A DNA stretch of 12,085 nucleotides from a virus: positions 1 through 12,085 of the IMG/VR virus record IMGVR_UViG_3300035670_002505; one strand, 5' to 3'. The number at the start of each line of letters is the position of its first letter. Positions within the stretch are counted from its first letter, which is position 1. Positions 244 through 11,762 of the stretch are shown here, piece after piece. Under the pieces are notes generated by a model that saw nothing but the letters and a program-made list of their open reading frames with translations, ran no database searches and had not been told where the DNA came from. Position numbers and translations under genes: made by a program.

Positions 244-257
244 GAAAAGTTTATATA
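244..257 (+). promoter_or_regulatory. Archaeal-type BRE/TATA promoter P1 (GAAAAG-TTTATATA) for the RHH-terminase operon.
   Basis: Same GAAAnn + T/A-rich octamer as at 2167, 6411, 7751 and 9652. Here 40 nt, including a (TA)8 tract, separate the TATA from ATG 298, versus 21 nt at the other four. Confidence 0.55.
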
Positions 258-268
258 TATATATATAT
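252..268. repeat. (TA)8 dinucleotide repeat inside an almost pure A/T stretch (250..297).
   Basis: tatatatatatatatat read directly. It lies between the P1 TATA and the first start codon. Confidence 0.9.
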
Positions 269-297
269 CATATATATTATAGATATTATATATAAAG

Positions 298-537
298 ATG
301 AAAATACAAAAATTATTGACGCTAGATCAAGAGATAGCAGAGGAACTAAGAAAAGAGGAGAATGCTTCTTTATTAGTTAATAACCTATTGAAAGAATATT
401 TTGAAAAGAAAGTTTATCAATTTATGAGCACTGAAGAATTAAAGAAACAAGTTAGAATTCTAGATATTAAAGCTAAATATGAAGCGGCAGCAGAAGCAGA
501 AATTAAATTACTAGAGGTTACAAATGGAGCAAAGTGA
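298..537 (+). CDS. Ribbon-helix-helix (CopG/Arc-like) DNA-binding protein with a coiled-coil tail. Candidate transcription regulator and/or small-terminase-like pac-recognition subunit.
   Basis: ATG 298, TGA stop. KLLTLD-QEIAEELRKEE-NAS-LLVNNLLKEYF fits a strand-helix-turn-helix RHH pattern, followed by a charged helical tail. It is the first gene after the non-coding island and lies upstream of terL. Confidence 0.6.
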   Translation: MKIQKLLTLDQEIAEELRKEENASLLVNNLLKEYFEKKVYQFMSTEELKKQVRILDIKAKYEAAAEAEIKLLEVTNGAK

Positions 538-742
538 AGAAAGAAGGCGTTTAATAGAGATGATTAGCCAAAGAGAGCATAAAGAAAAGAAGATAGACGA
601 GTTTGAGAAGGCTAGAATAGAAGCTATTAAGAAACACCCGCTTTATGAAGAAGCGGTTAAGTTTTGGGCGAGCCCAGAAGGCAAGAAGTCTATTAAGAAC
701 GCGCTCTTATCTAAGAATGAAAACGCCGACAGAAATCTCTGA
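524..742 (+). CDS. Hypothetical protein, 72 aa, highly charged and helical.
   Basis: ORF track. GAGGT lies ~6 nt upstream of the ATG. It overlaps the previous stop by 14 nt. No family recognised. Confidence 0.5.
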   Translation: MEQSEERRRLIEMISQREHKEKKIDEFEKARIEAIKKHPLYEEAVKFWASPEGKKSIKNALLSKNENADRNL

Positions 743-917
743 AATTTACGAAAAGGAGTTTCAAGACTTAATAGCTTTATATCCTCTGGAGCAGAGAGAA
801 AACTTAGTTAAATTTCATAATGCTTTAAATGAGATAGAGCATAAATTGGCGGAAGAATTAACAAAATGGAACAAGAAAAACAAAAATTCGATATTAATAA
901 ACCCTGGCTTACTTTAG
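717..917 (+). CDS. Hypothetical protein, ~66 aa (reading frame open from 645).
   Basis: Internal ATG at 717 (MKTPTEISEIYEKEF...). The 645 start would bury 98 nt inside the previous ORF. It overlaps the terL start by 52 nt. Start choice is uncertain. Confidence 0.4.
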   Translation: MKTPTEISEIYEKEFQDLIALYPLEQRENLVKFHNALNEIEHKLAEELTKWNKKNKNSILINPGLL

Positions 918-2164
918 ACGGGTGGCAACTCGAATATATTAGGGCTAAAGGTAACTGCTTCTTATTGTGTGGCCGTCAAGTAGGCAAATCAACAGCGGCA
1001 AGTATTAAGGCCGTAGAGTTAGCCGTTCATAAACACACTAAGGGAGAGGATATACTTATTATCGCTTATACAGAAAAGCAAGCCTATAACCTATTCTTTA
1101 AGGCTTTTAACTATGCTTCTATAAGATACCCGCATTTAATTAGTAAAAAAGCCAAAGAAAAGCCAACTAAGCACGAATTCGTTTTAAATGGCGTCAAAAT
1201 AATGTGTTACGCGGCTGGCCTAATGGGAGAAGGATTAAGAGGCCTAACTTTAAAGAAGATCATAATAGACGAGCCGAGATCTATGAATGATGAAGTCTTT
1301 ACCGCAGTCTTTCCTATGGTTAGCGTAACTGGCGGAAGTATTGATCTTCTCGGAACGCCTGGAGCTAAAGAGGGTTTTTTCTATATGTGCTCTTTAAGAG
1401 ACGATTTTCAAAAATTTTACGTTTCCGCGGAAGACTGCCCAAGGCACTCTAAGGAATTCCTAGAAGGCCAGAAAACCATTTTAACAGAGTTAAGATACGC
1501 GCAAGAATATCTAGCTATGTTTTTAGATGATATGAGAAGATTTTTTCCAGATGAGTGGATTAAAAAAGTATGTGTATTAAAGAGGCCGAATAGTTTTAAC
1601 AAAATAGGAAAGACATATCTAGGAGTAGATGTTGCTGGTTTAGGAGAAGATGAAATAACCTTCGAAGTTATACATAAATTGAATAAAGATCGTTTTGAGC
1701 AAGTAGAAAATATTATAGATAGAAAAAAATTAACAACTCAAACAACAGAAAAAATTTTACAATTACACGACGGATATAAATTCGATATGATCGGCGTAGA
1801 TGATGGCGGAGTAGGCTTCGGAGTATTCTCGGAATTACTAAGGGAGCCGAGAACTAGGGATAAGGTTAAAGCTCTTAATAATGCAAAAAGATTTTTATCT
1901 TCTGATAAAAAAGAAAAGAAGAAACTAATGAAAGAAGAAATGTATTATAGACTTTTATTGATGGGAGAACAAGGAAAAATAAAACTTCTAGACGATAGCA
2001 ATATAAAAAAATCTTTACAAAGCGTTTTAACCGAGGTAGTTATCCGAGAAGGGCGAGATAGTATTGAAAGGATTTACGGAGATGATACGCATATAGTAGA
2101 GGGTTTAATAAGAGCTAATTGGGTTTGCACGGAAGACGAGGGTTTAAGCTTATGGTGGCGATAA
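866..2164 (+). CDS. terL: Terminase large subunit (ATPase plus RNaseH-like nuclease).
   Basis: Walker A G-R-Q-V-G-K-S-T is encoded at 971..994. Walker B-like LKKIIIDE is present. Nuclease-domain acidic motifs are YLGVDVAGLGEDE, MIGVDDGGVG and GDDTHIVEG. Length is 432 aa. Confidence 0.93.
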   Translation: MEQEKQKFDINKPWLTLDGWQLEYIRAKGNCFLLCGRQVGKSTAASIKAVELAVHKHTKGEDILIIAYTEKQAYNLFFKAFNYASIRYPHLISKKAKEKPTKHEFVLNGVKIMCYAAGLMGEGLRGLTLKKIIIDEPRSMNDEVFTAVFPMVSVTGGSIDLLGTPGAKEGFFYMCSLRDDFQKFYVSAEDCPRHSKEFLEGQKTILTELRYAQEYLAMFLDDMRRFFPDEWIKKVCVLKRPNSFNKIGKTYLGVDVAGLGEDEITFEVIHKLNKDRFEQVENIIDRKKLTTQTTEKILQLHDGYKFDMIGVDDGGVGFGVFSELLREPRTRDKVKALNNAKRFLSSDKKEKKKLMKEEMYYRLLLMGEQGKIKLLDDSNIKKSLQSVLTEVVIREGRDSIERIYGDDTHIVEGLIRANWVCTEDEGLSLWWR

Positions 2165-2166
2165 AC

Positions 2167-2180
2167 GAAAGAATTAAATA
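2167..2180 (+). promoter_or_regulatory. Archaeal-type BRE/TATA promoter P2 (GAAAGA-ATTAAATA) for the portal/assembly operon.
   Basis: Starts 3 nt after the terL stop. The TATA ends exactly 21 nt before ATGG at 2202, the same spacing as at 6411, 7751 and 9652. Confidence 0.65.
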
Positions 2181-2201
2181 TAGGGATATACTTTAAAAAG
2201 G

Positions 2202-2333
2202 ATGGTAGATCTAAAAAAGATTAAGATAAAAGAAGAGGAGTTTGATGTTGAAGTAAGAGATTATATTTTTATTGAAACTATAAGAGAGTTAAGTAAATCT
2301 ATTGAGGCTCTGAGGTTAGCCAGCTTAAGATGA
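2202..2333 (+). CDS. Small hypothetical protein, 43 aa (not in the ORF track).
   Basis: MVDLKKIKIKEEEFDVEVRDYIFIETIRELSKSIEALRLASLR. The ATG sits at the conserved 21-nt distance from a BRE/TATA element. The stop overlaps the next start as ATGA. It fills an otherwise empty 165-nt gap. Confidence 0.5.
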   Translation: MVDLKKIKIKEEEFDVEVRDYIFIETIRELSKSIEALRLASLR

Positions 2334-2689
2334 GTTTTACTTTATGCACTAGCGCGGCAATAATTCAAAAAGCTGGTTATAATGTTTCCTCGACGACAGC
2401 AACAAGCGGAACTTTATTAGCTTCTTTTTGTGATCAAGCTGAAGCAACGTTATCTATGAAAACTAGATACGACTGGGTTACTAATTATGCTAGCGTTAAT
2501 GCAAATTTAAAACCTATGTTAGCCGACGCTACAAGCGATCTAGCTGCTATGAAGGTTATATCTTATGATCTAGGAAGATATACGGGCTTAGGTTATGCGA
2601 ACACTATGTTAAACGTATTGAAAAATAACTTCGATCAAATCGTAGTAGATTTAAGAGAAAAAACGTTTCAAGAGAAGGTGGTTTCATAA
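2330..2689 (+). CDS. Virion-associated hypothetical protein, 119 aa. Possibly a head-tail adaptor, by position only.
   Basis: ORF track. ATGA-coupled to the upstream ORF and TAATG-coupled to the downstream one. It lies between terL and the portal. Function is not established. Confidence 0.6.
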   Translation: MSFTLCTSAAIIQKAGYNVSSTTATSGTLLASFCDQAEATLSMKTRYDWVTNYASVNANLKPMLADATSDLAAMKVISYDLGRYTGLGYANTMLNVLKNNFDQIVVDLREKTFQEKVVS

Positions 2690-3336
2690 TGGCGCAGTTA
2701 CCTACATTTTTTAATGAAAGCGGACAAGTAGCTCTAGCTAATTATGATTTTACTGATATAGCTGAAGGAACTGGAAATAGAGTTTTTTATTGTTTTACTT
2801 CTAAGCCTGGCGGAACTTTAACTTATCACTTAGGGCAAAATGCGATCGAAGTCGGCGGAGTTTCTGGAGATACTACTGACGGAGCAACTGAAAGAAGATT
2901 TTTATTTTCTAGCAATACGGCAACTTTTAGTTTATCTGCTTTTAATACTCCTCAAATAATACAAGGAACAGCTTATCTTAACTTTACTATTGTAACTTTA
3001 GGCGGTTATGGTGGAACTGCTACTATAACAGCTTCTATTTTAAAGAACTCGACAACTTTAGCAACTACAACAGCAACAGCGCCGACTTCTGCAACTGCGG
3101 TAAGAACTTATAATTTATCTTTAACAATTACTCAAACAGATTTTGCCGTCGGAGATGTTTTAAAAGTAGCGTTTGCCGTTAATGAGAGCGGACACGTTTG
3201 CCTAGAGCACGATCCAACTAATAGAAGCGCGGGATCTTCTTGGCTTATAGGTGGTAAAACACACCCAGCCGTAGATGCAACAGAAAACCCAACTAAATGT
3301 TTAGCTTATATACCCTTTAAGCTTAATCTTAACTAA
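2689..3336 (+). CDS. Thr/Ser/Ala-rich beta-type structural protein, 215 aa, function unknown.
   Basis: AGGTGG lies ~8 nt upstream. TAATG junctions on both sides. Composition (TTLATTTATAPTSATAV, alternating hydrophobic pattern) suggests a beta-sandwich virion protein. Confidence 0.6.
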   Translation: MAQLPTFFNESGQVALANYDFTDIAEGTGNRVFYCFTSKPGGTLTYHLGQNAIEVGGVSGDTTDGATERRFLFSSNTATFSLSAFNTPQIIQGTAYLNFTIVTLGGYGGTATITASILKNSTTLATTTATAPTSATAVRTYNLSLTITQTDFAVGDVLKVAFAVNESGHVCLEHDPTNRSAGSSWLIGGKTHPAVDATENPTKCLAYIPFKLNLN

Positions 3337-4439
3337 TGGCTATCTTAGATCACACACAAGGAAGCGTAACAGATTACGAGAATAATCTAACAGCCACGTC
3401 TATAAATCCTCAAAATACGGACGGAATAACAGCGGGAAAGGAAACTATTTACTCTAATTCACTCTGGGCTCAACACTGGGGATATTTTAATTCTTGCCCA
3501 GAGTTAAAATCTGCGATACTTATGAAAGCTATTTGGAACGTTGGTAAAGGTTATACAACTGATCCAGAAACTCAAATTATTCTAGATCATATTTCTGGCT
3601 GGGGAAAAGATACCTTCGAGGATATTCTTTTCAATATGGACGTTATTAGAAAAGTGGGTAGGGATAGTATAGCTCAAATTATAAGAGATAAAGAAACTGG
3701 AACTTTAATAAATCTTAAACCTTTAGATCCAGCGAGTATAAGATGGGTTGTAGATGAAAAAGGCATTATTATCCGATACGAGCAATTCGCTAAAACTGGC
3801 GATACTACGGAAGTTAAGAGAACTTTTAAGCCAGATGAAATATTCCACTTATCAAATAATAGGTTGGCTGATCAAATACACGGGATTAGTGTTATCGAGA
3901 GCCTAGATAGCACGCTTCTAGCAGAACTAGAGAGTTTTACGGATACAACTAAGCTTATGCATAGACAAGCTAAGCCTTTTATAGTTTTTAAGCTTAAAAC
4001 GGACGATCCAGTTAAAATAAGCGCTTTTCAAACTAAAATTCAAAATATAAGAGATAAAACTGAAGATTTAATCATCCCGGACGACGAGAATATATTATCT
4101 TATGAAGTAGTAAGCGTTCCAGTTTCATCCGTTATCCTAGACTGGAGAAACGACGTAACAAAGAGATTTTATAGGGCTCTAGGAATGCCTTTAGTTATCT
4201 TCGGAAGCGCTAACTCAACAGAGAGCGGCGGCAAGATGGAGTATTTTGCACACGAACAAGTATTCGAGCACGAGCAGAGATACCTAGAGAAACAGATTTA
4301 TAATCAATTAGGCTTAAGGATTAACTTATATCCGCCTACTTCTATGGCTCCTCAATTAGCTCAAGACACGGCTAAAGATGGCGGAGCTCAACAATTAAAC
4401 ACCCAGCCTAGCGACGCTATAGCTGGACGAGGTAAGTAA
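3336..4439 (+). CDS. Portal protein.
   Basis: 367 aa. The layout resembles the HK97-type Phage_portal family: CPELKSAILMKAIWNVGKGY, then GRDSIAQIIRDKETGTLINLKPLDPASI, then FHLSNNRLADQIHGISVIESL, then QAKPFIVFKL, then FYRALGMPLVIFG. It is in the same operon as the assembly genes. By-eye match only. Confidence 0.75.
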   Translation: MAILDHTQGSVTDYENNLTATSINPQNTDGITAGKETIYSNSLWAQHWGYFNSCPELKSAILMKAIWNVGKGYTTDPETQIILDHISGWGKDTFEDILFNMDVIRKVGRDSIAQIIRDKETGTLINLKPLDPASIRWVVDEKGIIIRYEQFAKTGDTTEVKRTFKPDEIFHLSNNRLADQIHGISVIESLDSTLLAELESFTDTTKLMHRQAKPFIVFKLKTDDPVKISAFQTKIQNIRDKTEDLIIPDDENILSYEVVSVPVSSVILDWRNDVTKRFYRALGMPLVIFGSANSTESGGKMEYFAHEQVFEHEQRYLEKQIYNQLGLRINLYPPTSMAPQLAQDTAKDGGAQQLNTQPSDAIAGRGK

Positions 4440-5377
4440 TGGCTCGGCCAATACCAGTAAGAAAATCAACTTCTTATGATAAACAAAAAAAACAAGAAAG
4501 CCAACTAGTAAGAGATAAATTAACTGGTAAAGATGTTTTTAAAGAAAGTGGCCAGCCTTTAGTTCCAGAAGTAAAAATATATAGTAGGCCAACGGGAACG
4601 GATCCAAGTAAAAACGTAGATATAACAAATTTAAGCCCAGAAGAAAGAAAAGTTATTCAAGAAAAAAACGCGAGGGTTGGTAGAGTATTAGAGGGAGCAA
4701 GTAAAGCAGCTTCAGAAGGAGAAGCTAAAGACATAGCTATACAAGAGATATTAAGTAAAGAATTACCTCAAGAAGAAACTACTCCAATACCAGAACAAGC
4801 TCAAGTAGCACAACCAACCCAGAGATTAACGCCAGCCGGACAGCCTTTAACTGAATTTATTAAAGAGGCTTTTCTCGGAAAGACTGAAACTTCAACTGGA
4901 GAGCCTATTCTAGCGGGAACAGCGCCTATAATTACGGGCGCGGGAGTAACTTCTATATTGCCTTCAATAACTAAAGCGTTACCTTCTATAAAAACTCTAG
5001 ATATATCTAAAAAAGTTTTATCTTTTAAGAGTTTATTAACTCTGGGAGCCGTTGGAACTTCGATAAAATTAAGGGCTAATACTGCTCAAAATATTCTAGG
5101 ATCTTCTCTTACTAGAGCAGAACAGATATTTAAAGAAGTAGAAGCTGGAAGAGATTACACGGATGCTCAAATAGAACTAGAGGAAGTTTATAATAATATA
5201 AGACAAGCAGAAAATACGGCGACAGCTATGAGTAAAGTAGATTTATTCGGCTTCTTAGGATTAAAAGATACTTTAGTAAAATTCCAATATGCAAAGCCAG
5301 CGATAGAGAACTTTAATAACGACTTACTAGAAGCTAGACAAAAAGCACTTTTAACTAAATACGGACTTAGTCAATAA
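4439..5377 (+). CDS. Hypothetical virion protein, 312 aa. Possibly a minor head, internal or ejection protein.
   Basis: GAGGT upstream and TAATG junctions. Charged N-terminus, central Gly/Ala/Thr-rich hydrophobic segment (PILAGTAPIITGAGVTSILPSITKALPSI...LLTLGAVGTSI), helical C-terminus. It lies immediately after the portal. Confidence 0.6.
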   Translation: MARPIPVRKSTSYDKQKKQESQLVRDKLTGKDVFKESGQPLVPEVKIYSRPTGTDPSKNVDITNLSPEERKVIQEKNARVGRVLEGASKAASEGEAKDIAIQEILSKELPQEETTPIPEQAQVAQPTQRLTPAGQPLTEFIKEAFLGKTETSTGEPILAGTAPIITGAGVTSILPSITKALPSIKTLDISKKVLSFKSLLTLGAVGTSIKLRANTAQNILGSSLTRAEQIFKEVEAGRDYTDAQIELEEVYNNIRQAENTATAMSKVDLFGFLGLKDTLVKFQYAKPAIENFNNDLLEARQKALLTKYGLSQ

Positions 5378-5556
5378 TGTTCGAAGAAACTTTATTTCAA
5401 TACGGAATGGCGGGAATTTTTGTAGCTTATTTAATTTACGATAGACAATATATTATTAAAAATTTTATGAGGGAGTTTAGAGAAGCTTTAAATAGAAATA
5501 CAAGCGCAATAAATAAATTATTAGAAGGGGGTAAATATTGTGGAAGAAGAAAATAA
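5377..5556 (+). CDS. Small membrane protein, 59 aa, one predicted TM helix (not in the ORF track).
   Basis: MFEETLFQYGMAGIFVAYLIYDRQYIIKNFMREFREALNRNTSAINKLLEGGKYCGRRK. TAATG start. It overlaps the next GTG start by 17 nt. The architecture (N-terminal TM plus amphipathic helix) resembles small YvrJ/holin-like phage proteins. Confidence 0.45.
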   Translation: MFEETLFQYGMAGIFVAYLIYDRQYIIKNFMREFREALNRNTSAINKLLEGGKYCGRRK

Positions 5557-5782
5557 ACCAGTAGAACAGCCAGAGCCACAACAAGAGGTTAAGCCTATTG
5601 CTAACGTGGATATAATAGAAAAAGAGAACGCTAGACTAGAAGCAGCTATTGCTAAAAGACAAGAACTTATAAGTAAAATTCAATTAGCTGGAAGCGCTGA
5701 CGCTGGAAGTATTTATAAGACGCCAGAACAGCAACATAAAGAGTTCGTCGAGGCTGAAATAAGAAAACGTTTAACTGGATAA
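5540..5782 (+). CDS. Scaffolding-like protein, 80 aa.
   Basis: GTG start with a strong AGGGGGT 7 nt upstream. Acidic Pro/Glu/Gln-rich N-terminus then a coiled-coil segment (EKENARLEAAIAKRQELISK). It lies upstream of the capsid genes. The capsid protein lacks an obvious delta domain. Confidence 0.5.
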   Translation: MEEENKPVEQPEPQQEVKPIANVDIIEKENARLEAAIAKRQELISKIQLAGSADAGSIYKTPEQQHKEFVEAEIRKRLTG

Positions 5783-5783
5783 A

Positions 5784-6296
5784 ATGCACTTAAATTTATT
5801 TGTAAGAGGGAAATATGAACAGCTTAAGCTATGGGAGAACTTAGTTAGCTCGCAGTTTTGGGTTTTTCCTCGGAAGAATATGCAAACGGGAGAAACAGAG
5901 CCGACACTAGTTCAAGGATCTTTAAGATACTCTATTCTAGGAGCTTATGAATATATTTTTCCAGAATATTGCTTACCAGAAGTTTTATCTTTTTTTGGAA
6001 TTACTAATAAAGATTATACTGGAGCAAAGAGCAACGAGACTTTAAAACATAAATTTAAATTAGGATTTTTAAGGAAAATATTTGAATGTCAAGCAATACC
6101 TAAAAAAGCAATTAAGGAAGCTTCTAAGATAGAGCCGACGATAGCTCTAGGAAAGAGAGGAGTAAGCTCGGCGCAAATTTTAGGCGTTTCTATACATCCA
6201 ATAGGAATAAGGAAAGATATTTTTGGAGTAATGCCTAAAGATCCAAGCGGTAAGGATCCGTATAGGCAAGTAGATTACTACCAGGAGCTTTTATGA
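5784..6296 (+). CDS. Hypothetical protein, 170 aa.
   Basis: ORF track. Starts 1 nt after the previous stop. It occupies the slot where a prohead protease often sits, but I see no S78/ClpP-type motifs. Confidence 0.6.
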   Translation: MHLNLFVRGKYEQLKLWENLVSSQFWVFPRKNMQTGETEPTLVQGSLRYSILGAYEYIFPEYCLPEVLSFFGITNKDYTGAKSNETLKHKFKLGFLRKIFECQAIPKKAIKEASKIEPTIALGKRGVSSAQILGVSIHPIGIRKDIFGVMPKDPSGKDPYRQVDYYQELL

Positions 6297-6421
6297 TTAC
6301 CGAGCTAGGAATAATTTATTTATCTATTTTAGCGACGATAGGCCTAGTAGTTAAGATTTTTCAACTCTGGCGAGAAGGTAAGTTTAGTTATTCGTTTAAA
6401 CGAATAAAACGAAAAGTTTAA
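6293..6421 (+). CDS. Small membrane protein, 42 aa (not in the ORF track).
   Basis: MITELGIIYLSILATIGLVVKIFQLWREGKFSYSFKRIKRKV has one TM helix plus a basic tail. ATGA overlap with the upstream stop. Its 3' end carries the 20-bp palindrome and the BRE of the capsid promoter. Confidence 0.45.
   Translation: MITELGIIYLSILATIGLVVKIFQLWREGKFSYSFKRIKRKV
6388..6407. promoter_or_regulatory. Perfect 20-bp palindrome TTATTCG-TTTAAA-CGAATAA, 3 nt upstream of the capsid promoter BRE. Candidate operator.
   Basis: The sequence equals its own reverse complement (checked base by base). The same 7-nt arms with the same 6-nt spacing recur at 11728..11747. Confidence 0.6.
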
Positions 6422-6424
6422 ATA
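6411..6424 (+). promoter_or_regulatory. Archaeal-type BRE/TATA promoter P3 (GAAAAG-TTTAAATA) for the decoration and major capsid genes.
   Basis: The TATA ends exactly 21 nt before ATGG at 6446. There is no Shine-Dalgarno in between, which implies a leaderless mRNA. Confidence 0.7.
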
Positions 6425-6445
6425 GTAGCTATATCTATATTTCTT

Positions 6446-6856
6446 ATGGCTAACGAAGCAACAAAAATAAGATTATACGGAAACAACGGAGACGTTGCTG
6501 ATTTTACCATCGCTGATGGAACCGCTATTTCTGCTGGAGCATTATTAAAATTAACTGATCCAGATACAGCTATTATTTCTTCTGCTGCGAACGATGTTTG
6601 CGCTGGAATTGCTGCTTCAAGTAAAGAAGCTTCGGACGGATCCACAAGACTAGGCGTTTATACTAACGGAGACTTTAAGATGTATGCTAGCGGATCAATT
6701 ACAGCTGGACAAATGTTAGTCTCTGCTGCTGACGCTAATTTTCCTAACTACGTTAAAGCTCTTTTAACTGCTACGGCTTCTGGAGCTGCTATTATAGGTT
6801 ACGCTAAAGAGACGGCTTCGGCTGGAGAAACTTTTGTAGCGAGGATAAGATTATAA
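6446..6856 (+). CDS. Head decoration/cement-like protein (DUF2190-like).
   Basis: 136 aa, Ala/Gly/Ser-rich. The pattern (AISAGALLKL, VCAGIAASS, GDFKMYASGSITAGQMLV, AIIGYAKETASAGETFVARI) resembles DUF2190 proteins commonly found next to HK97-type capsid genes. By-eye match only. Confidence 0.55.
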   Translation: MANEATKIRLYGNNGDVADFTIADGTAISAGALLKLTDPDTAIISSAANDVCAGIAASSKEASDGSTRLGVYTNGDFKMYASGSITAGQMLVSAADANFPNYVKALLTATASGAAIIGYAKETASAGETFVARIRL

Positions 6857-6857
6857 A

Positions 6858-7751
6858 ATGGTATATCAAACAACAGAAAACACTAATATTAGAAAGGAAA
6901 TAATAGACGGAACACTAAGACAAATAATACCTAAGAAATTCGTTTTTAGGCAAGCTTTAAGCGTTGTTTCAACTGGAGCTTGGAAAAATACCTTCTGGAG
7001 AGAAAACACAGCTACTTTAACTGGAGTTACTACAACTGGAATAACAAGAAATTCTTTTAAAGAAATTGGTAGAGGAGCAGAGTTTCCTAACGCTTCGGCT
7101 TCTTGGGAAGAAGTAAGCACAAGGATCTTAAAATTCGGAGCTCAAGATGTTTTGCAGTGGGAAGATGTTTTATCTGATAACGTTAATATTGAAGCTAGAA
7201 CTATCGAAAAAATAGCCGAGGGAGTAGCTTCTGCTGAAGATACTTATATCTGGAATACTCTTACTGAAAATAGAAGCCCGACAAATATTCAAAGCGTAGC
7301 TATTACAGCTACTCAACACTGGACTGGAGCTTCTGCTGCTATCTTCGATAACATTATGCAAGGAAAAGAAAAGCTTAAAGATTTCAATTACGATACTTCA
7401 AACGTTATAGTTTTTATTTCTCAAAGAGACGAGAGAGCGATAACAAAATGGGTAACTGATAAAGGAGCTCAATTTAACAGCATATCACAAGGAACAGCCT
7501 TAAACGGCCAAGTGCCTGGACTAGCTGGAGTTAGATTTGTAGTTTCTCCTAACGTTACAGCTTCTTACGCTTTAATGGTTATCCCTCAAAGGTGCGCAAC
7601 TCTTAGAGAACTAGAAAGTTTAAAGACTGATGTTACTGATGATCCAGGAAATACAAGAAGAATAAGAGCTTGGGAACAAATTTTAGTAGAACTTAACGAG
7701 CCTAAGGCTATTGTCTTATTCTCTAATACTCAAGGGCCTGGAACAGAGTAG
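6858..7751 (+). CDS. Major capsid protein, HK97 fold.
   Basis: 297 aa. GRGAEFPNASASWEEVSTRILKFGAQDVLQWEDVLSDNVNIEARTIEKIAEGVASAEDTYIWN resembles the Phage_capsid core (EGa.kp.s..f..v...v.kia....is.e.l.D...). The C-terminal block is GLAGVRFVVSPN...ALMV. It sits behind its own strong promoter. Confidence 0.88.
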   Translation: MVYQTTENTNIRKEIIDGTLRQIIPKKFVFRQALSVVSTGAWKNTFWRENTATLTGVTTTGITRNSFKEIGRGAEFPNASASWEEVSTRILKFGAQDVLQWEDVLSDNVNIEARTIEKIAEGVASAEDTYIWNTLTENRSPTNIQSVAITATQHWTGASAAIFDNIMQGKEKLKDFNYDTSNVIVFISQRDERAITKWVTDKGAQFNSISQGTALNGQVPGLAGVRFVVSPNVTASYALMVIPQRCATLRELESLKTDVTDDPGNTRRIRAWEQILVELNEPKAIVLFSNTQGPGTE

Positions 7752-7764
7752 AAACATATTTATA
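7751..7764 (+). promoter_or_regulatory. Archaeal-type BRE/TATA promoter P4 (GAAACA-TATTTATA) for the tail-fibre operon.
   Basis: Overlaps the last base of the capsid gene stop codon. The TATA ends exactly 21 nt before ATGG at 7786. Confidence 0.65.
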
Positions 7765-7785
7765 GTTGTTATTTCTTAATTTATT

Positions 7786-9171
7786 ATGGGTGGCTGGAGC
7801 AACGATAATCGTGATACAATAGAATGGGATGGATCTATAAAAGTTAAAAATAAATTTATTGGTGACGGATCACAATTAACAAATTTACCCATAGACTTCG
7901 GAGCTGCTTATGAAATACCGACGACAAACACGACTTCTGACAATTTTATTTATTCTTCAAAATTTACACACGACGGAGACGGCGGTATAAGTATAGGCGG
8001 ATTAAGTTTAAACAACAGCGAAGCATTAAAAATATATAAATTACAAACAGCATTAAGCGGTAATAGTTATGGTATTAACGTAGCGCCAACAGCACAACCA
8101 GCAAGCAACAGCACGGGTATTTTTACGGGAGCTAGAACTTCTATAACTGCCGAGGGATCTTCAACTATTACAAGATTAACGGGCGGATATTTCCAAGTTT
8201 ATAATAATAATAGTGCTACAAGTGGGAACGGATTAGCACAAGCCTTTGGCGGGCATTTTATAATCACTAACGCCTCAACGGGCAAGATTAATTCTATGGT
8301 ATGCGGAAGATTTGGGGTAGAAAATTTATCCACGGGATTAGTTAATAATACTTATGGTTGTGGTATTTTTAGGCCGGTAGGAACGGCGGGCGGAACTTAT
8401 GTCAATATGTATGGCTTATACATGGAAGATCAAACTCCCACGGCGGGTAGTATGAGTAATACGCCTTATGCTATATATCAAGCGGGAACAACTAATAAAA
8501 ACTATTTTGGCGGGTTAATTGGTATTGGAACAACAAATCCAAGCGAAGTTTTAGATGTTATAGGAGATATAGAAGTAAGTGCGGATATACATAACCTCGC
8601 AGATAACGGGAAACATTACTTCGGAGCTTCTGACGACGCTTCTATTTATTACGACGGAACTGATTTAATTTTAAATGGAAAGGAAGTAGGAACGGGCGGA
8701 GTAAGGCCAATAAGTAGGTTAATCGTTCCTATGGGTGAGATATCCTATTTTGACACTACGGGAACTACTATAAGTATTGCTTCAACTTCGGACGGATCAA
8801 CAAATATGGTTGTTGTTAATCCAACAACAGCATTAAGCACAAGTTACGAGTTTGACAACGGCGGATCAAACAACGGACGTTTAAGATATACGGGAACTAC
8901 TACTAAAATGTTTCATATTGCTTGCACGATTAGCATAGCAAGCACGGCAGCTAACGATTTATTTGTTTTTGGGGTTGCTAAAAATGGTAGTGTTGTGGCG
9001 GCGAGTAAAGTTTTAATGAAAGTTATAGGCGCAGCAGATACGCAAAGCACGGCTTTACACCTTATGGTAGAGATGGCTACTAATGATTACTTAGAATTGT
9101 ATGTTGGAAACACAACGGATACTGATGATTTGGTAGTCAAGACTTTAAATTTATTTGCAATGGGTATGTAA
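7786..9171 (+). CDS. Tail fibre / receptor-binding protein with a C-terminal C1q/TNF-like jelly-roll domain.
   Basis: The N-terminal FIGDGSQLTNLP and the central GLIGIGTTNPSEVLDVIGDI and ASIYYDGTDLIL motifs are typical of phage tail fibres. The last ~130 aa (GRLRYTGTTTKMFHIACTISIAS...VAKNGSVVAAS...NDYLELYVGN...LNLFAMG) fits the C1q/TNF-like pattern. Confidence 0.8.
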   Translation: MGGWSNDNRDTIEWDGSIKVKNKFIGDGSQLTNLPIDFGAAYEIPTTNTTSDNFIYSSKFTHDGDGGISIGGLSLNNSEALKIYKLQTALSGNSYGINVAPTAQPASNSTGIFTGARTSITAEGSSTITRLTGGYFQVYNNNSATSGNGLAQAFGGHFIITNASTGKINSMVCGRFGVENLSTGLVNNTYGCGIFRPVGTAGGTYVNMYGLYMEDQTPTAGSMSNTPYAIYQAGTTNKNYFGGLIGIGTTNPSEVLDVIGDIEVSADIHNLADNGKHYFGASDDASIYYDGTDLILNGKEVGTGGVRPISRLIVPMGEISYFDTTGTTISIASTSDGSTNMVVVNPTTALSTSYEFDNGGSNNGRLRYTGTTTKMFHIACTISIASTAANDLFVFGVAKNGSVVAASKVLMKVIGAADTQSTALHLMVEMATNDYLELYVGNTTDTDDLVVKTLNLFAMGM

Positions 9172-9181
9172 GGGGGTTAAT

Positions 9182-9397
9182 ATGGTAGATATAACGATAA
9201 AAAACGTTCCAGAAGGCGCAGAACAAGCCGTTAAGAATATGGCTATGGTTGCTATTGATAGATTTTTACAGCAACCGCTTCAACCGCCTAAAGAACTTTT
9301 CGATAACTACAAAGCAACTTTAGATAATTGTCTAGAAGCTAACGGATTACCTAAAAAATTTGATGTAGTGATCGAGGAGAAGATAAATGTCGATTAG
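9182..9397 (+). CDS. Hypothetical protein, 71 aa. The N-terminus is weakly RHH/FitA-like.
   Basis: AGGGGGT lies 5 nt upstream of ATG 9182, preferred over the track start at 9155, which lies inside the fibre gene. VDITIKNVPEGAEQAVKNMA resembles a strand-helix opening, but the second helix is too short for a confident RHH call. Confidence 0.55.
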   Translation: MVDITIKNVPEGAEQAVKNMAMVAIDRFLQQPLQPPKELFDNYKATLDNCLEANGLPKKFDVVIEEKINVD

Positions 9398-9575
9398 ACT
9401 TTTGAGGCAGAGTAAGAGCGAACTAGAACAAACGATAGTTAAAACAGCCAAGTTTATGCGCCAACATTACGACTATCAAAGTTTATACGAACTCTTACGC
9501 GAGGAACATTTTAAAGCTCAAATGATCTATAAACAAAGAACTGGAGATTTTTACAGATGGGAGCGCTTGAAATAA
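9387..9575 (+). CDS. Hypothetical protein, 62 aa, helical and basic.
   Basis: GAGGAG lies 7 nt upstream. Overlaps the upstream gene by 11 nt. Confidence 0.55.
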   Translation: MSIRLLRQSKSELEQTIVKTAKFMRQHYDYQSLYELLREEHFKAQMIYKQRTGDFYRWERLK

Positions 9576-9611
9576 TCTGGTATGTTTTACTAATATCCGT
9601 CGCTGTTATTC

Positions 9612-9634
9612 TTTTATTTTTGTTATCTTTTTTT
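9612..9634 (+). terminator. Oligo-T terminator-like tract (T4, T5 and T7 runs) at the end of the tail-fibre operon.
   Basis: cttttatttttgttatcttttttt lies directly before promoter P5. Oligo-T tracts are the usual archaeal termination signal. A 29-aa hydrophobic ORF (9557..9646) is an alternative reading. Confidence 0.45.
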
Positions 9635-9651
9635 AGTTACATATAAAAACC

Positions 9652-9665
9652 GAAAGATTTAAATA
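9652..9665 (+). promoter_or_regulatory. Archaeal-type BRE/TATA promoter P5 (GAAAGA-TTTAAATA) for the small-ORF module.
   Basis: The TATA ends exactly 21 nt before ATGG at 9687. Confidence 0.7.
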
Positions 9666-9686
9666 CTTACTTACTTAGTGTTTATT

Positions 9687-9866
9687 ATGGAAACAGAATT
9701 TAAAACTCCTCAACTGGAGACAACAACGGAAAGCTTAAAGTTAATTAAGAATACTAAAGGCTACAACTGGGAAATAAAACTCTTATCTTTAGATATTGAG
9801 AAATTAACAGAATTAAATAATGAGATGATCGCGCGCTTCGGATCTGGGAGTTTAACAGATGAATGA
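9687..9866 (+). CDS. Hypothetical protein, 59 aa.
   Basis: ATG 9687 (METEFKTPQ...) is chosen over the GTG at 9678 because of the conserved promoter-to-ATG spacing. Confidence 0.6.
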   Translation: METEFKTPQLETTTESLKLIKNTKGYNWEIKLLSLDIEKLTELNNEMIARFGSGSLTDE

Positions 9867-9925
9867 GGACGATATGAATAGAGATCTAGGAGCCGAGATA
9901 GATGAGATTTATGAGAGGTTAAGAG

Positions 9926-10087
9926 ATGAAAACATTAAATATTAGTTACGAAGATAAGGCCTTCCAGAAAATCCAGAAGATTAAAGTTAGATACATGAAG
10001 TTTCATAAATTAAAAAAAATTGCCTGGGATAGAATAATTTATGTTGCTCTATCTAGGCTCGAGGAAGATGGAAAAAACGTTAAATAG
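9926..10087 (+). CDS. Small hypothetical protein, 53 aa, possibly RHH-like (not in the ORF track).
   Basis: MKTLNISYEDKAFQKIQKIKVRYMKFHKLKKIAWDRIIYVALSRLEEDGKNVK. GAGAGG lies 7 nt upstream. It has a strand-helix-helix-like pattern and fills the 9867..10067 gap. Confidence 0.4.
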   Translation: MKTLNISYEDKAFQKIQKIKVRYMKFHKLKKIAWDRIIYVALSRLEEDGKNVK

Positions 10088-10319
10088 TGTCCAGAAAGAA
10101 GTAGCGCAAGAAGCTATACAAACTAAGCACGGGTTAATAGAGATGTATCAAGCTGGCTTTTTAGATGGCTATAAATTCCACGCTAAGAGCCACGCTACTG
10201 ATAAGGGGATCTGGGGCAAGATAGCTAAAGACTCTAAGAGATATTTTGAGAAAAGATTTTTTAAGAAAATCAATAAGAGGTTAAACTATAAAACTGGAAG
10301 ATGGAAAGCAAAAAAGTAA
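10068..10319 (+). CDS. Hypothetical protein, 83 aa, basic C-terminus.
   Basis: Frame open from 10041. The ATG at 10068 (MEKTLNSVQ...) is preferred because it reduces the overlap with 9926..10087. Start is uncertain. Confidence 0.5.
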   Translation: MEKTLNSVQKEVAQEAIQTKHGLIEMYQAGFLDGYKFHAKSHATDKGIWGKIAKDSKRYFEKRFFKKINKRLNYKTGRWKAKK

Positions 10320-10495
10320 AACAACTTAAGCCTAAGAACTGCAAGACTGCGATTAAATGCATTCAGAAGGGAATAGACTTCAACTTACAAGTTTCTCCTA
10401 ATAGATTTATAATGTTCGTTGGTGGGATATTGTCTAAAATTGAAGATGGGCAACAATTCGTTTATATACGTGAAAGAGGGTGGGTTGGGATATGA
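10301..10495 (+). CDS. Hypothetical protein, 64 aa.
   Basis: ORF track. 19-nt overlap upstream and an ATGA junction downstream. Confidence 0.5.
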   Translation: MESKKVKQLKPKNCKTAIKCIQKGIDFNLQVSPNRFIMFVGGILSKIEDGQQFVYIRERGWVGI

Positions 10496-10674
10496 AAATA
10501 ATATTTACTTGTAAAAATGGGCATAGTTATGAAAGTAAAAATCCAATAACTACCGAAGGGGCATCTAGATTTGGTTGGAAGCAAAACGATACTTGCAAGG
10601 TTTGTGGAGAAGTTATCATTAAAGAAGATTGCTACGTAAACGGAAAAATAGTTATGGGGGCTATAAGAATATGA
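10492..10674 (+). CDS. Zinc-ribbon-like small protein, 60 aa.
   Basis: GGGTGGGTTGGG lies just upstream of ATG 10492. CKNGH...CKVCG gives a C-x3-H / C-x2-C metal-binding pair. ATGA junctions on both sides. Confidence 0.55.
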   Translation: MKIIFTCKNGHSYESKNPITTEGASRFGWKQNDTCKVCGEVIIKEDCYVNGKIVMGAIRI

Positions 10675-11063
10675 GTGAATTAATAATTGAGGAAGAAGAA
10701 AAAGCTAAAGACTTTCAAACTATAAATTTCAAAGGTAAAGAGTTTAGAATTTATAAATGGGAAAATAAACCTATTAAAGATTTTGTTTATCCAAAAGGAT
10801 TTAGAATGGCTGAATTTCAAGAGTTAGTAGATTTGATAGATAATAAGAAATTTGAAGCAGAAGTTTGGAAATCGTATTATACTAAACATTGGAGTAAATT
10901 ACAACAAAATAAAGAATATTGTTTGTCTAGGGCTTATCTCAACTATGCCGGCGGTTGGGATTCCTATTACGAGCTTTTGGCGGATTCCAATGGCTATGGT
11001 CGGGTAGTAGTCGTGAGGGATTTAAAATCTAAATTTAAACGGGGGGTAAAAAATGATAACTGA
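10671..11063 (+). CDS. Hypothetical protein, 130 aa. Weak DUF1566/FISUMP-like pattern.
   Basis: TGGGGG lies ~10 nt upstream of ATG 10671. KGFRMAEFQELVDL and the C-terminal GRVVVVRD loosely resemble the GWRLPT..EL..L ... vRcVR signature. Weak. Confidence 0.55.
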   Translation: MSELIIEEEEKAKDFQTINFKGKEFRIYKWENKPIKDFVYPKGFRMAEFQELVDLIDNKKFEAEVWKSYYTKHWSKLQQNKEYCLSRAYLNYAGGWDSYYELLADSNGYGRVVVVRDLKSKFKRGVKNDN

Positions 11064-11749: not shown

Positions 11750-11762
11750 TTTCCACTGGAAA

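What the first reader, a model, noticed from the sequence alone, without database searches (positions are those of the whole stretch)
244..9689. Five BRE/TATA elements with fixed 21-nt spacing to ATGG indicate an archaeal host and leaderless operon-first genes
GAAAGA-ATTAAATA (2167), GAAAAG-TTTAAATA (6411), GAAACA-TATTTATA (7751) and GAAAGA-TTTAAATA (9652) each end exactly 21 nt before an ATGG start (2202, 6446, 7786, 9687). No Shine-Dalgarno lies in between. A fifth copy, GAAAAG-TTTATATA (244), precedes the first gene. A purine-rich BRE followed by TTTAWATA, centred ~26 nt upstream of the start, is the classical archaeal promoter geometry and would make these mRNAs leaderless. Genes inside each unit instead carry GAGGT/AGGTGG/GGGGGT motifs 5-10 nt upstream, or are coupled by TAATG (2689, 3336, 4439, 5377) or ATGA (2330, 6293, 10492, 10671) junctions. 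The motif also rescues a 43-aa ORF (2202..2333) missing from the ORF track and re-assigns the start of the 9678 ORF to 9687.
Basis: partly seen in the sequence, partly recalled or inferred. Interest (0 to 1): 0.72.

Follow-up and report, generated by a model that had tools for sequence, protein, structure and literature searches.

The report
Archaeal promoters in a tiny tailed virus
This 12-kb virus genome carries textbook archaeal promoter boxes placed so that transcripts should begin at the start codon, and together with an archaeal-type replication-origin motif this points to an archaeal host for a large, barely described family of very small head-tailed viruses.

Summary
Four copies of GAAANN-WWTWWATA end exactly 21 nt before an ATG, at 2167, 6411, 7751 and 9652 (0 expected by chance). 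The fifth copy (244) lies 40 nt from its ATG, not 21.

The window is a complete 11,958-bp head-tailed virus genome from a large family of ~12-kb genomes. In 80 relatives, exact TTTAAATA/TTTATATA octamers peak sharply 21 nt before ORF-opening ATGs (121 at 21, 24 at 22). Columns that were not selected show:
- AAA at -34..-32 (a BRE);
- A or T at -10;
- a pyrimidine at -1;
- almost no Shine-Dalgarno motifs.

Bacterial controls show no such peak. Environmental archaeal contigs carrying an Orc1/Cdc6 gene do.

I also found origin-recognition-box-like repeats (TCCAnnGGAAATGAAGG) in the single long non-coding region, conserved across the family. The same sequence sits next to orc1/cdc6 genes in environmental archaeal contigs.

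Best reading: these are host TBP/TFB-dependent promoters that give leaderless first genes, and the host is an archaeon whose lineage is unresolved (possibly DPANN). The mechanism is ordinary for archaeal viruses. The interest lies in the virus family and in a possible takeover of the host origin machinery. No transcription start site was measured.

The parts
244..257 (+). Promoter P1 candidate: BRE GAAAAG (244-249) plus TATA TTTATATA (250-257). It ends 40 nt before ATG 298. A (TA)n tract follows (258-296), within which an alternative CATATATA (269-276) ends 21 nt before the ATG.
   Evidence: Sequence. Homologues of gene 1 in L070 and L075 have TTTAAATA/TTTATATA at exactly 21 nt. Spacing claim not met in the window.
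298..2164 (+). Unit 1: three small genes (298-537, 524-742, 717-917) and the large terminase subunit (866-2164).
   Evidence: Pfam Terminase_6N 1.5e-7 and PHROG 2 at 2.8e-33. ORFs.
2167..2180 (+). Promoter P2: BRE GAAAGA (2167-2172) plus TATA ATTAAATA (2173-2180). Predicted start site at or next to A2202.
   Evidence: In relatives the equivalent promoter (CAAAAC/CAAAAG TTTAAATA N21 ATGG) often lies inside the 3' coding end of TerL.
2202..2333 (+). 43-aa gene, first gene of unit 2, ATGA-coupled to the next gene (2330-2689).
   Evidence: Positional homologues of 46-61 aa in L013, L014, L016, L017, L033, L050, L084 and L092, with a shared C-terminal pattern. A promoter lies at 21 nt in L013, L017, L050 and L084.
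2330..6421 (+). Rest of unit 2: conserved 119-aa gene, 215-aa gene, portal (3336-4439), 312-aa gene and five small or medium genes, joined by TAATG/ATGA overlaps or SD motifs.
   Evidence: Pfam Phage_portal 1.9e-12 and PHROG 12 at 2.2e-21. Junctions and SD motifs.
6411..6424 (+). Promoter P3: BRE GAAAAG plus TATA TTTAAATA. It overlaps the 3' end of gene 6293-6421. Predicted start site at A6446.
   Evidence: 29 of 40 cement-gene homologues have the box in exact register, and most of the rest are shifted by 1 nt.
6446..7751 (+). Unit 3: cement/decoration-like protein (6446-6856) and HK97-fold major capsid protein (6858-7751).
   Evidence: Pfam Phage_cement_2 1.4e-7 and Phage_capsid_4 3.6e-10; PHROG 1650 at 4.8e-14.
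7751..7764 (+). Promoter P4: BRE GAAACA plus TATA TATTTATA. It starts at the last base of the capsid gene stop codon. Predicted start site at A7786.
7786..9575 (+). Unit 4: tail-fibre-like protein (7786-9171) and two small genes (9182-9397, 9387-9575).
   Evidence: PHROG 24754 (tail fiber) 4.5e-7 on residues 324-458.
9628..9634 (+). T7 run inside a T-rich tract (about 9605-9650) between unit 4 and P5: candidate archaeal oligo-T terminator.
   Evidence: This and the T8 run at 11478-11485 are the only intergenic T runs of 7 or more; the one other T7 run lies inside a gene. The termination role is inferred from general knowledge of archaeal termination, not tested.
9652..9665 (+). Promoter P5: BRE GAAAGA plus TATA TTTAAATA. 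Predicted start site at A9687.
   Evidence: L093 has GAAACA TTTAAATA 22 nt before the first gene of its small-gene module.
9687..11455 (+). Unit 5: eight small genes (first gene 9687-9866, start moved from GTG 9678 to ATG 9687). No recognisable function.
   Evidence: No Pfam hit above threshold.
11478..11485 (+). T8 run just after the last gene: candidate terminator. A hairpin at 11509-11532 with a T-rich tail follows.
11748..11763 (.). ORB-like element 1: TTTTCCACTGGAAAC (palindromic core TTCCACTGGAA).
   Evidence: It contains the TTTCCACTGGA(A) core of the Pyrococcus furiosus ORB and mini-ORB probes used in Cdc6 binding assays (PMC1904270).
11776..11793 (-). ORB-like element 2 (imperfect): acctttaTTTCCTATGcg, 31 nt after element 1. 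The same inverted arrangement occurs in L033, L039, L057 and L063.
   Evidence: (repeat D4).
11863..11881 (-). ORB-like element 3: on the minus strand it reads TCCATAGGAAATGAAGGTTG.
   Evidence: Near-identical to TCCAGTGGAAATGAAGGGGT found beside orc1/cdc6 genes in L135, L184 and L195.
11959..12085 (.). Exact 127-nt repeat of positions 1-127 (includes a (CGCA)n tract). It marks a circular or terminally redundant genome of 11,958 bp.
   Evidence: repeat D2.

Best explanation
The four (probably five) motifs are basal archaeal promoters. A purine-rich TFB-recognition element (A[G/C]AAA) sits directly next to an 8-bp TATA box bound by host TBP. Each is placed so that the host RNA polymerase starts at, or within a base or two of, the A of the start codon.

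The first gene of each transcription unit would then be translated from a leaderless mRNA. Downstream genes in the unit use Shine-Dalgarno motifs or stop/start overlaps.

The genome is a complete 12-kb head-tailed virus with no transcription or replication genes of its own. Its host is therefore an archaeon.

Shown here: the motifs, their geometry, their family-wide conservation and the absence of SD motifs.
Inferred: TBP/TFB binding, the start-site position and the identity of the host.
For: Window:
- 4 matches to the combined pattern against 0 in 200 shuffles, all on the coding strand.

Family:
- The strict motif occurs 88 times on the + strand and 6 times on the - strand. 36 of the + strand copies lie exactly 21 nt before an ORF-opening ATG.
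- Selecting only on an exact TATA octamer gives 121 sites at 21 nt and 24 at 22 nt.
- In those 121 sites the unselected columns show A at -34/-33/-32 (0.87/0.86/0.96), G or C at -35, A or T at -10 (0.98), pyrimidine at -1 (0.91), and SD-like motifs in only 5 of 121.
- An unbiased profile of 255 genes preceded by a gap shows the same boxes. 688 tightly packed genes do not.
- 222 genes with the box in register have SD-like motifs in 9% of cases, against 37% of 973 others.
- The promoter before the cement gene is in exact register in 29 of 40 homologues although the spacer sequence varies.
- The promoter before the 119-aa gene is kept even when it lies inside TerL coding sequence.

Literature:
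- TATA about 23 bp and BRE about 33 bp upstream of the start site in Thermococcus (PMC4247193).
- BRE CGAAA and a WW element at -10 in haloarchaea (PMC4983044).

Controls:
- No 21-nt peak in phi29 or in bacterial MAG loci.
- 7 sites at exactly 21 nt in environmental contigs found by the ORB motif, 3 of them in the cdc6-bearing L195 and 4 in L123, whose origin is unassigned.
- Sigma-70-like sites are not enriched (44 against 35.4 +/- 6.3).

Independent archaeal signal:
- ORB-like repeats in the non-coding region: 44 against 6.3 +/- 3.3 expected across the family, mostly 570-1900 nt upstream of TerL.
- The same motif lies beside orc1/cdc6 genes in L135, L184 and L195.

Nearest cultivated TerL: Halogranum tailed virus 1, 32% identity.
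Against: - No 5'-end data, so 'leaderless' is a geometric inference.
- P1 in the window does not have the canonical spacing.
- No CRISPR-spacer, tRNA or provirus link to any host was obtained.
- Of five close MAG-binned relatives, three sit in bacterial bins (Actinomycetota, Staskawiczbacteria, Saccharibacteria) and two in DPANN bins. All are short whole contigs that carry the same promoter architecture.
- The closest cultivated capsid proteins are from Bacillus phages (about 22% identity), and Thermus/Meiothermus phages appear among the TerL hits.
- The SIRV2 positive control gave no clear peak with my octamer set.
Confidence: 0.8

Rival explanations
1. The host is a bacterium (for example a CPR/Patescibacteria member). 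The motif would then be a bacterial or phage-specific promoter, such as an AT-rich -10-like box with an upstream A-tract, producing a short SD-less leader of about 14 nt.
For: - Three of five MAG-binned relatives are in bacterial bins.
- The closest cultivated capsid homologues are from Bacillus phages.
- Thermus/Meiothermus phages are among the TerL hits.
Against: - TTTAAATA matches TATAAT poorly and lacks its final T, and the conserved GAAA box abuts it instead of lying 17 bp away (sequence).
- Sigma-70-type pairs are not enriched.
- The bacterial-binned contigs carry the same boxes, and L001 also has an ORB-like inverted pair.
- Bacterial control DNA has no 21-nt peak.
- The pyrimidine at -1, the W at -10 and the BRE columns fit archaeal grammar.
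- No RNA polymerase or sigma factor is encoded.
Confidence: 0.07
2. The motif is an operator for a virus-encoded regulator, or some other signal, rather than the basal promoter. The fixed distance to the ATG would reflect translational or regulatory coupling.
For: - Several small proteins of unknown function are encoded, one with a weak HTH hint.
- Portal-gene promoters in a subset of relatives also share spacer sequence, which could be an operator.
Against: - The motif equals the general archaeal BRE/TATA consensus.
- The same geometry occurs on environmental archaeal contigs unrelated to the virus (L195).
- It precedes different gene families in different relatives.
- Apart from that subset, the spacer sequence is not conserved.
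Confidence: 0.05
3. The promoters are archaeal, but not every unit is leaderless. P1 in particular starts transcription about 23 nt after TTTATATA (near position 280) and gives a leader of about 18 nt without an SD.
For: The best BRE/TATA match before gene 1 ends 40 nt from the ATG. Short-leadered mRNAs are common in some archaea (median 16 nt in Thermococcus kodakarensis, PMC4247193).
Against: Homologues of gene 1 in L070 and L075, and the first gene of L093, have the box at 21-22 nt. The extra 19 nt in the window are (TA)n-like and contain a TATA-like octamer in the canonical register.
Confidence: 0.4

Closest known systems
Archaeal basal promoters (BRE + TATA box + initiator) with leaderless mRNAs, as mapped in Thermococcus kodakarensis and Haloferax volcanii and used by archaeal viruses
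   Same: - 8-bp TTTAWATA box.
- A-rich BRE directly upstream (A[G/C]AAA, compared with CGAAA).
- A or T at -10.
- Pyrimidine/purine at -1/+1.
- Box-to-start distance that matches the published 23 bp and 33 bp medians.
   Different: Nothing in the sequence grammar differs. Start sites were not measured here. The spacing to the ATG is unusually uniform (21 nt, sometimes 22) across a whole virus family.
Verdandiviruses (tailed viruses of Asgard archaea; bioRxiv 10.1101/2021.07.29.453957)
   Same: - Small archaeal head-tailed genomes.
- A capsid-stabilisation (cement) gene directly upstream of the HK97 capsid gene.
- No replication or transcription genes.
- Arrays of small unknown genes.
   Different: - Verdandiviruses are 19.5-20.6 kb with siphovirus-type tail modules, whereas this family is 11.5-12.6 kb with only a fibre-like tail protein recognisable.
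- Sequence relatedness was not tested.
- The host lineage here is unknown.
Archaeal chromosomal origins: ORB and mini-ORB repeats bound by Orc1/Cdc6 (Pyrococcus, PMC1904270)
   Same: - Core TTCCA(C/G)TGGAA with the extension ATGAAGG(GG).
- Several copies, often as an inverted pair.
- AT-rich or microsatellite sequence nearby.
- The same motif occurs beside cdc6 genes in environmental archaea.
   Different: - No orc1/cdc6 gene lies next to it, because the virus encodes none.
- The long G-string of full ORBs is short or absent in the window copies.
- Binding and origin activity are untested.
Smallest known tailed phages (11.6 kb genomes, as cited in bioRxiv 10.1101/2025.06.18.659913)
   Same: Genome size at the lower limit for Caudoviricetes, with TerL, portal and an HK97 capsid protein retained.
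   Different: Those phages infect bacteria or are satellites. This family carries archaeal cis-elements.

Membership tests
Archaeal BRE/TATA basal promoter | 8-bp A/T-rich TATA box (TTTAWATA-like) about 23-27 bp upstream of the start site | tested here: met
   The octamers span -29..-22 relative to the A of the ATG at four window sites and at 121 + 24 family sites. The position is measured from the ATG, not from a mapped start site.
Archaeal BRE/TATA basal promoter | Purine-rich TFB-recognition element directly upstream of the TATA box | tested here: met
   GAAAGA, GAAAAG or GAAACA in the window. In columns not used for selection, A at -34..-32 reaches 0.87-0.96 and G or C sits at -35. Compare CGAAA (PMC4983044).
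Archaeal BRE/TATA basal promoter | Initiation at a purine preceded by a pyrimidine, plus an A/T element near -10 | tested here: met
   Pyrimidine at -1 in 0.91 of sites and A or T at -10 in 0.98. In the window, -1 is T at three sites and G at 2201.
Archaeal BRE/TATA basal promoter | Binding by TBP and TFB, and transcription by archaeal RNA polymerase | not testable with these tools
   Needs biochemistry or transcriptomics.
Leaderless mRNA | 5' untranslated region of 0 to about 8 nt | not testable with these tools
   Inferred from the box-to-ATG distance only. No 5'-end data.
Leaderless mRNA | No Shine-Dalgarno motif before the start codon | tested here: met
   None at the four window starts. 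5 of 121 and 9% against 37% in the family.
Bacterial sigma-70 promoter | -35 TTGACA and -10 TATAAT hexamers 16-18 bp apart upstream of operon-first genes | tested here: not met
   44 hits against 35.4 +/- 6.3 in shuffles. No good hit is placed appropriately before 2202, 6446 or 9687, and the one at 7759-7787 overlaps the ATG.
Caudoviricetes (HK97-fold tailed viruses) | Large terminase, portal and HK97-fold major capsid protein | tested here: met
   Pfam and PHROG hits. The fold itself was not modelled.
Archaeal ORB-type replication origin | Repeated TTCC...GGAA dyad elements matching known ORBs | tested here: met
   Three elements at 11748-11881. Family enrichment is 44 against 6.3 +/- 3.3. 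The sequence matches the Pyrococcus furiosus ORB core and ORBs next to cdc6 genes in environmental archaea.
Archaeal ORB-type replication origin | Adjacent initiator gene (orc1/cdc6) | tested here: not met
   No Cdc6/AAA+ hit in any window protein. The host protein would have to be used.
Archaeal ORB-type replication origin | Orc1/Cdc6 binding and origin activity | not testable with these tools
   Needs gel-shift, ChIP, replication-initiation mapping or a plasmid replication assay.
Verdandiviruses | Sequence or structural relatedness of the capsid protein and TerL to VerdaV1-4 | not tested
   No verdandivirus record appeared among the hits in the 'phages' collection. I made no direct comparison.

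The most novel reading that the evidence does not exclude
This is one genome of a globally distributed, essentially undescribed family of about 12-kb head-tailed viruses. They would be the smallest tailed viruses of archaea. They encode only virion and small accessory proteins and hand over both transcription and replication to the host:
- transcription through BRE/TATA promoters that give leaderless mRNAs;
- replication through ORB repeats that recruit host Orc1/Cdc6.

Members are currently mis-binned into CPR and Actinomycetota MAGs.
Probability: 0.35. Interest if true: 0.7.

Novelty: new member of a known kind. Interest (0 to 1): 0.5.

Why it matters
The promoter grammar itself is textbook. 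Its value here is diagnostic in three ways.

- **Host domain.** It assigns a large, uncultivated family of minimal tailed viruses to archaeal hosts without CRISPR or provirus evidence. The family has more than 1,600 TerL homologues, and its longest contigs cluster at 11.5-12.6 kb. The grammar also exposes contigs that sit in bacterial MAG bins.
- **Annotation.** It fixes start codons and rescues small first genes such as the 43-aa ORF.
- **Replication.** If the ORB-like repeats are functional, these viruses would show how a 12-kb tailed virus can replicate with no replication gene, by borrowing the host initiator. Other studies looked for ORBs in archaeal viruses and did not find them (AGV1, bioRxiv 10.1101/2021.04.21.440749; Thermococcales viruses, PMC12934983).

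Tried and rejected
- **Capsid-based search of IMG/VR with exact peptide words** found nothing. A TerL alignment was needed.
- **tRNA and Rfam scans** found no tRNA and only one sub-threshold snoRNA-like hit, so they give no host link.
- **MAG binning as host evidence** was set aside. The bins are mixed (DPANN, CPR, Actinomycetota), all contigs are short, and all carry the same archaeal-type boxes.
- **The 49-kb contig behind L067** was considered as a possible provirus. Its first 205 nt recur 11,663 nt downstream at 85% identity, so it looks like concatenated related genomes. Pfam hits show phage tail proteins, not host genes.
- **Exact look-up of the window's own TerL** found no other contig.
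- **SIRV2 as a positive control** for the 21-nt peak was uninformative with my octamer set.
- **The metagenome scan for the ORB 17-mer** returned mostly single hits, which I attribute to chance. Only clustered hits were used.
- **Literature.** I could not read Wu et al. 2024 (Nat Microbiol, DPANN viruses), so I cannot exclude that this family is described there. The papers I could read on CPR/DPANN and groundwater viruses do not describe it.
- **An extra TTTATATA at 10461-10468**, 23 nt before ATG 10492, was not counted as a promoter. It has no GAAA box, and a strong SD motif lies in the spacer.

Full report
**What the window is**

Positions 1-127 are repeated exactly at 11959-12085. The window is therefore a complete circular or terminally redundant genome of 11,958 bp. 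All plausible genes lie on the + strand. Profile searches identify:
- a large terminase subunit (866-2164);
- a portal protein (3336-4439);
- a cement/decoration-like protein (6446-6856);
- an HK97-type major capsid protein (6858-7751);
- a protein with a tail-fibre-like C-terminus (7786-9171).

No polymerase, primase, helicase, initiator, integrase, sigma factor or RNA polymerase was detected. There are no tRNA genes and no significant Rfam hits. This is a very small head-tailed virus.

**Checking the observation**

The pattern GAAANN-WWTWWATA-N21-ATGG occurs four times, at 2167, 6411, 7751 and 9652. All copies are on the + strand, and none appeared in 200 dinucleotide-preserving shuffles.

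None of the four start codons has a Shine-Dalgarno-like motif upstream. About 14 of the other 21 genes do.

The fifth copy is real as a sequence (GAAAAG-TTTATATA, 244-257), but it ends 40 nt before ATG 298. A (TA)n tract fills the gap. A weaker CATATATA at 269-276 sits in the canonical register. The G that follows the ATG is a general property of genes in this family, not of these sites.

**The family**

The terminase has 1,674 homologues at E <= 1e-5. Among the best 120, the longest contigs cluster tightly between about 11.1 and 12.6 kb and none is longer. That is the signature of a family with a fixed genome size of about 12 kb.

Eighty related contigs were fetched from IMG/VR (TerL 46-58% identical), plus two closer complete genomes at 58-61%. 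The terminase, a 119-aa protein, the portal, the cement protein and the capsid protein are conserved. Most small genes are not.

**The motif across the family**

1. In 36 of the 88 the next ORF-opening ATG lies exactly 21 nt downstream, and in 7 it lies 22 nt downstream.
2. An unbiased profile was made from 255 genes that follow a gap of 30-200 nt, aligned at the ATG with no motif input. It shows TTTAAATA at -29..-22 and GAAA at -35..-32. A profile of 688 tightly packed genes shows neither. Instead it shows G enrichment at -14..-8 and TAA just before the ATG.
3. Selecting only on an exact TTTAAATA or TTTATATA octamer gives 311 sites on the + strand. Of these, 121 lie exactly 21 nt and 24 lie 22 nt before an ORF-opening ATG. 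On the other strand there are 162 octamers and only 4 at 21 nt.
4. In those 121 sites, the columns that played no part in the selection show:
   - A at -34, -33 and -32 (0.87, 0.86, 0.96), G or C at -35, and A at -36;
   - A or T at -10 (0.98);
   - a pyrimidine at -1 (0.91);
   - an SD-like motif in only 5 of 121 spacers.
5. Over all called genes, 222 have the box in register. Of these, 9% have an SD-like motif and 83% have a pyrimidine at -1. Among the 973 others, 37% have an SD-like motif and 59% have A at -1.
6. Before the cement gene, 29 of 40 homologues carry the box in exact register, and most of the rest are shifted by one base. The 21-nt spacer differs freely between them.
7. Before the 119-aa gene, many relatives keep CAAAAC/CAAAAG-TTTAAATA-N21-ATGG inside the 3' coding end of the terminase gene. 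A subset also has AAAACA-TTTAAATA-N21 before the portal gene.

Conservation of the box and of the distance, but not of the spacer, and even inside coding sequence, is what selection on a promoter with a fixed start site predicts.

**Comparison with published archaeal promoters**

In Thermococcus kodakarensis the TATA box lies a median 23 bp and the BRE a median 33 bp upstream of mapped start sites (PMC4247193). For haloarchaea the proposed elements are CGAAA (BRE), a TATA box and a WW element at -10 (PMC4983044).

With the A of the ATG taken as +1, the family consensus places the TATA box at -29..-22, the AAA of the BRE at -34..-32, W at -10 and a pyrimidine/purine pair at -1/+1. Every element therefore fits a start site at the first base of the start codon.

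**Controls**

- Sigma-70-type hexamer pairs are not enriched in the window (44 against 35.4 +/- 6.3), and none is sensibly placed before the four genes.
- The same octamer-to-ATG analysis gave no site at 21 nt in phage phi29 (0 of 17 octamers) or in about 99 kb of bacterial MAG sequence (0 of 56).
- It gave 7 sites at exactly 21 nt, and none at 19, 20 or 22-27 nt (one at 18), in about 29 kb of low-GC environmental contigs found through the ORB motif.
  - Three of the seven are in L195, which carries orc1/cdc6.
  - Four are in L123, whose origin is unassigned.
- SIRV2 gave no clear peak with these octamers, so that positive control was uninformative.

**An independent archaeal signal**

The one long non-coding stretch (11456 through the repeat to 297) contains TTTTCCACTGGAAAC at 11748-11763. 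Two further related elements lie at 11776-11793 (imperfect) and 11863-11881. The third reads TCCATAGGAAATGAAGG on the minus strand.

The Pyrococcus furiosus ORB1-3 and mini-ORB probes used in Cdc6/Orc1 binding assays all contain ATTTCCACTGGA. The reverse complement of ORB1 reads TTCCAGTGGAAATGAAACTCTGGGGGG (PMC1904270).

Across the family, TTTCCNNTGGA/TCCANNGGAAA occurs 44 times against 6.3 +/- 3.3 in first-order Markov simulations. Most copies lie 570-1900 nt upstream of the terminase gene, in the equivalent non-coding region. They often form an inverted pair about 31 nt apart, with the form TCCACAGGAAATGAAGG(GGT).

A scan of public metagenomes for TCCASWGGAAATGAAGG returned many single hits, which I attribute to chance. 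Where the motif is clustered, it lies directly beside genes with Cdc6_C, Cdc6_lid and AAA domains in L184, L135 and L195. Those copies read TCCAGTGGAAATGAAGGGGT. In L136 and L206 it lies beside D5-like primase-helicase genes, which suggests mobile elements.

The viral motif is therefore the same as a genuine ORB of environmental archaea. My inference, not shown, is that the virus uses host Orc1/Cdc6 at this region.

**Host**

No direct link was obtained. Contigs of the family are binned into Woesearchaeota and Nanoarchaeota MAGs, but also into Staskawiczbacteria, Saccharibacteria and Actinomycetota MAGs. All are short whole contigs, and all carry the same box at 21-22 nt. The 'Actinomycetota' contig also has an inverted ORB-like pair. 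I treat the bacterial bins as mis-binning and the DPANN bins as a weak hint only.

The nearest cultivated terminase is from Halogranum tailed virus 1 (32% identity), followed by Meiothermus and Thermus phages and Halorubrum virus Hardycor1. The nearest cultivated capsid proteins are from Bacillus phages at about 22% identity. Neither result is decisive.

**Inferred transcription map**

| Unit | Promoter | Genes | End |
|---|---|---|---|
| 1 | P1, 244-276 (spacing uncertain) | 298-2164: small genes and terminase | none seen |
| 2 | P2, 2167-2180 | 2202-6421: 43-aa gene, 119-aa gene, portal and others | none seen |
| 3 | P3, 6411-6424 | 6446-7751: cement and capsid | none seen |
| 4 | P4, 7751-7764 | 7786-9575: fibre and two small genes | T-rich tract with T7 at 9628-9634 |
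| 5 | P5, 9652-9665 | 9687-11455: small genes | T8 at 11478-11485 |

These are the only intergenic T runs of 7 or more; the one other T7 run (5990-5996) lies inside a gene. I take oligo-T as an archaeal termination signal from general knowledge, and this was not tested. P2, P3 and P4 abut or overlap the preceding gene, so they would act as internal promoters that add to read-through.

**The two annotation claims**

The 43-aa ORF 2202-2333 has positional counterparts of 46-61 aa between the terminase and the 119-aa gene in at least eight relatives. They share a C-terminal pattern. In L013, L017, L050 and L084 they are preceded by the box at exactly 21 nt. The ORF is most likely a real gene. Moving the start of the 9678 ORF to ATG 9687 follows from the same geometry.

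**Novelty**

BRE/TATA promoters and leaderless first genes are standard for archaea and their viruses, so the finding is a new member of a known kind.

What may be new is the family itself. Its genomes sit at the lower size limit of tailed viruses (11.6 kb for isolates, according to bioRxiv 10.1101/2025.06.18.659913). They are smaller than the roughly 20-kb verdandiviruses of Asgard archaea, which share the cement-before-capsid arrangement and the lack of replication genes.

In the papers I could read, ORBs were looked for in archaeal viruses and not found. I could not read the main paper on DPANN viruses, so prior description of this family cannot be excluded.

Noticed in passing
window 11748-11881 (also L018, L019, L033, L039, L057, L063, L076, L093 and others): Origin-recognition-box-like repeats (TCCAnnGGAAATGAAGG, often an inverted pair about 31 nt apart) lie in the single long non-coding region. 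They are enriched about 7-fold in the family and match ORBs next to orc1/cdc6 genes in environmental archaeal contigs L135, L184 and L195. The virus has no initiator gene of its own.
   Followed up: yes
window 1-63 and 11945-12021: A (CGCA)n-type tract of about 75 nt with strictly alternating pyrimidine and purine lies next to the ORB-like region. Relatives have other microsatellites at the equivalent place: (CTAT)n in L050, (TAC)n in L093, and (CTGACTGCT)n at the start of L094. Its role is unknown; it could be an unwinding element, a slippage product or a packaging signal.
   Followed up: partly
window 11600-11617 and 67-84 (= 12025-12042): An 18-nt inverted repeat (GCCCTTCTGGGCTCGCGC / GCGAGGGCCCAGAAGGGC, 89% complementary) brackets the ORB-like elements and the (CGCA)n tract, 407 nt apart. 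A G-rich stretch follows at 108-135.
   Followed up: no
window 11509-11543: A G+C-rich hairpin with a T-rich tail (bacterial-terminator-like) lies on the + strand, 50 nt after the last gene and after the T8 run.
   Followed up: no
L067 (IMGVR_UViG_3300023257_000002, 49,360 nt): The first 205 nt recur at 85% identity 11,663 nt downstream, and the contig length is about four genome units. It looks like several related ~12-kb genomes joined head to tail (assembly chimera or concatemer), not a provirus.
   Followed up: partly
L001, L004, L005 (MAG contigs CAZLME010000152.1, JBAZUH010000003.1, CAYZYK010000037.1): Short contigs of this virus family sit in MAGs labelled Actinomycetota, Staskawiczbacteria and Saccharibacteria, yet they carry the same archaeal-type promoter boxes. 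L001 also has an ORB-like inverted pair. This is probable mis-binning.
   Followed up: partly
L020, L024, L029, L030, L032, L036, L068, L070, L075, L082, L083, L091 (upstream of the portal gene): In a subset of relatives the portal gene has its own AAAACA-TTTAAATA box at 21 nt. Unlike other promoters, these share a similar spacer (caaGcttcTACatNaatTtaC), which may be an operator or may reflect common descent.
   Followed up: no
L195 (5982, 6324, 7919) and L123: Environmental low-GC contigs found through the ORB motif show the same TATA-N21-ATG geometry at several genes. L195 carries orc1/cdc6 and includes GAAAAG-TTTATATA-N21-ATG. These could be relatives of the host lineage. Their taxonomy was not determined.
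   Followed up: partly
L136 (38-168), L206 (1899-1958), L104 (2415-2536): Clusters of three or more identical ORB repeats (TCCAGTGGAAATGAAGGT) lie next to D5-like primase-helicase genes (DUF3987, DUF5906/D5_N) on low-GC contigs. These are probably archaeal plasmids or viruses that use ORB-type origins.
   Followed up: no
family-wide, +4..+6 of promoter-proximal genes: Promoter-proximal genes strongly prefer GCA as the second codon (G 0.70, C 0.70, A 0.68). This partly reflects the many cement-gene homologues that begin Met-Ala.
   Followed up: no
window 10461-10468: A perfect TTTATATA lies inside gene 10301-10495, 23 nt before ATG 10492. It has no GAAA box, and a strong SD-like GAGGGTGGG lies in between. 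It is either a chance match or a weak internal promoter.
   Followed up: no
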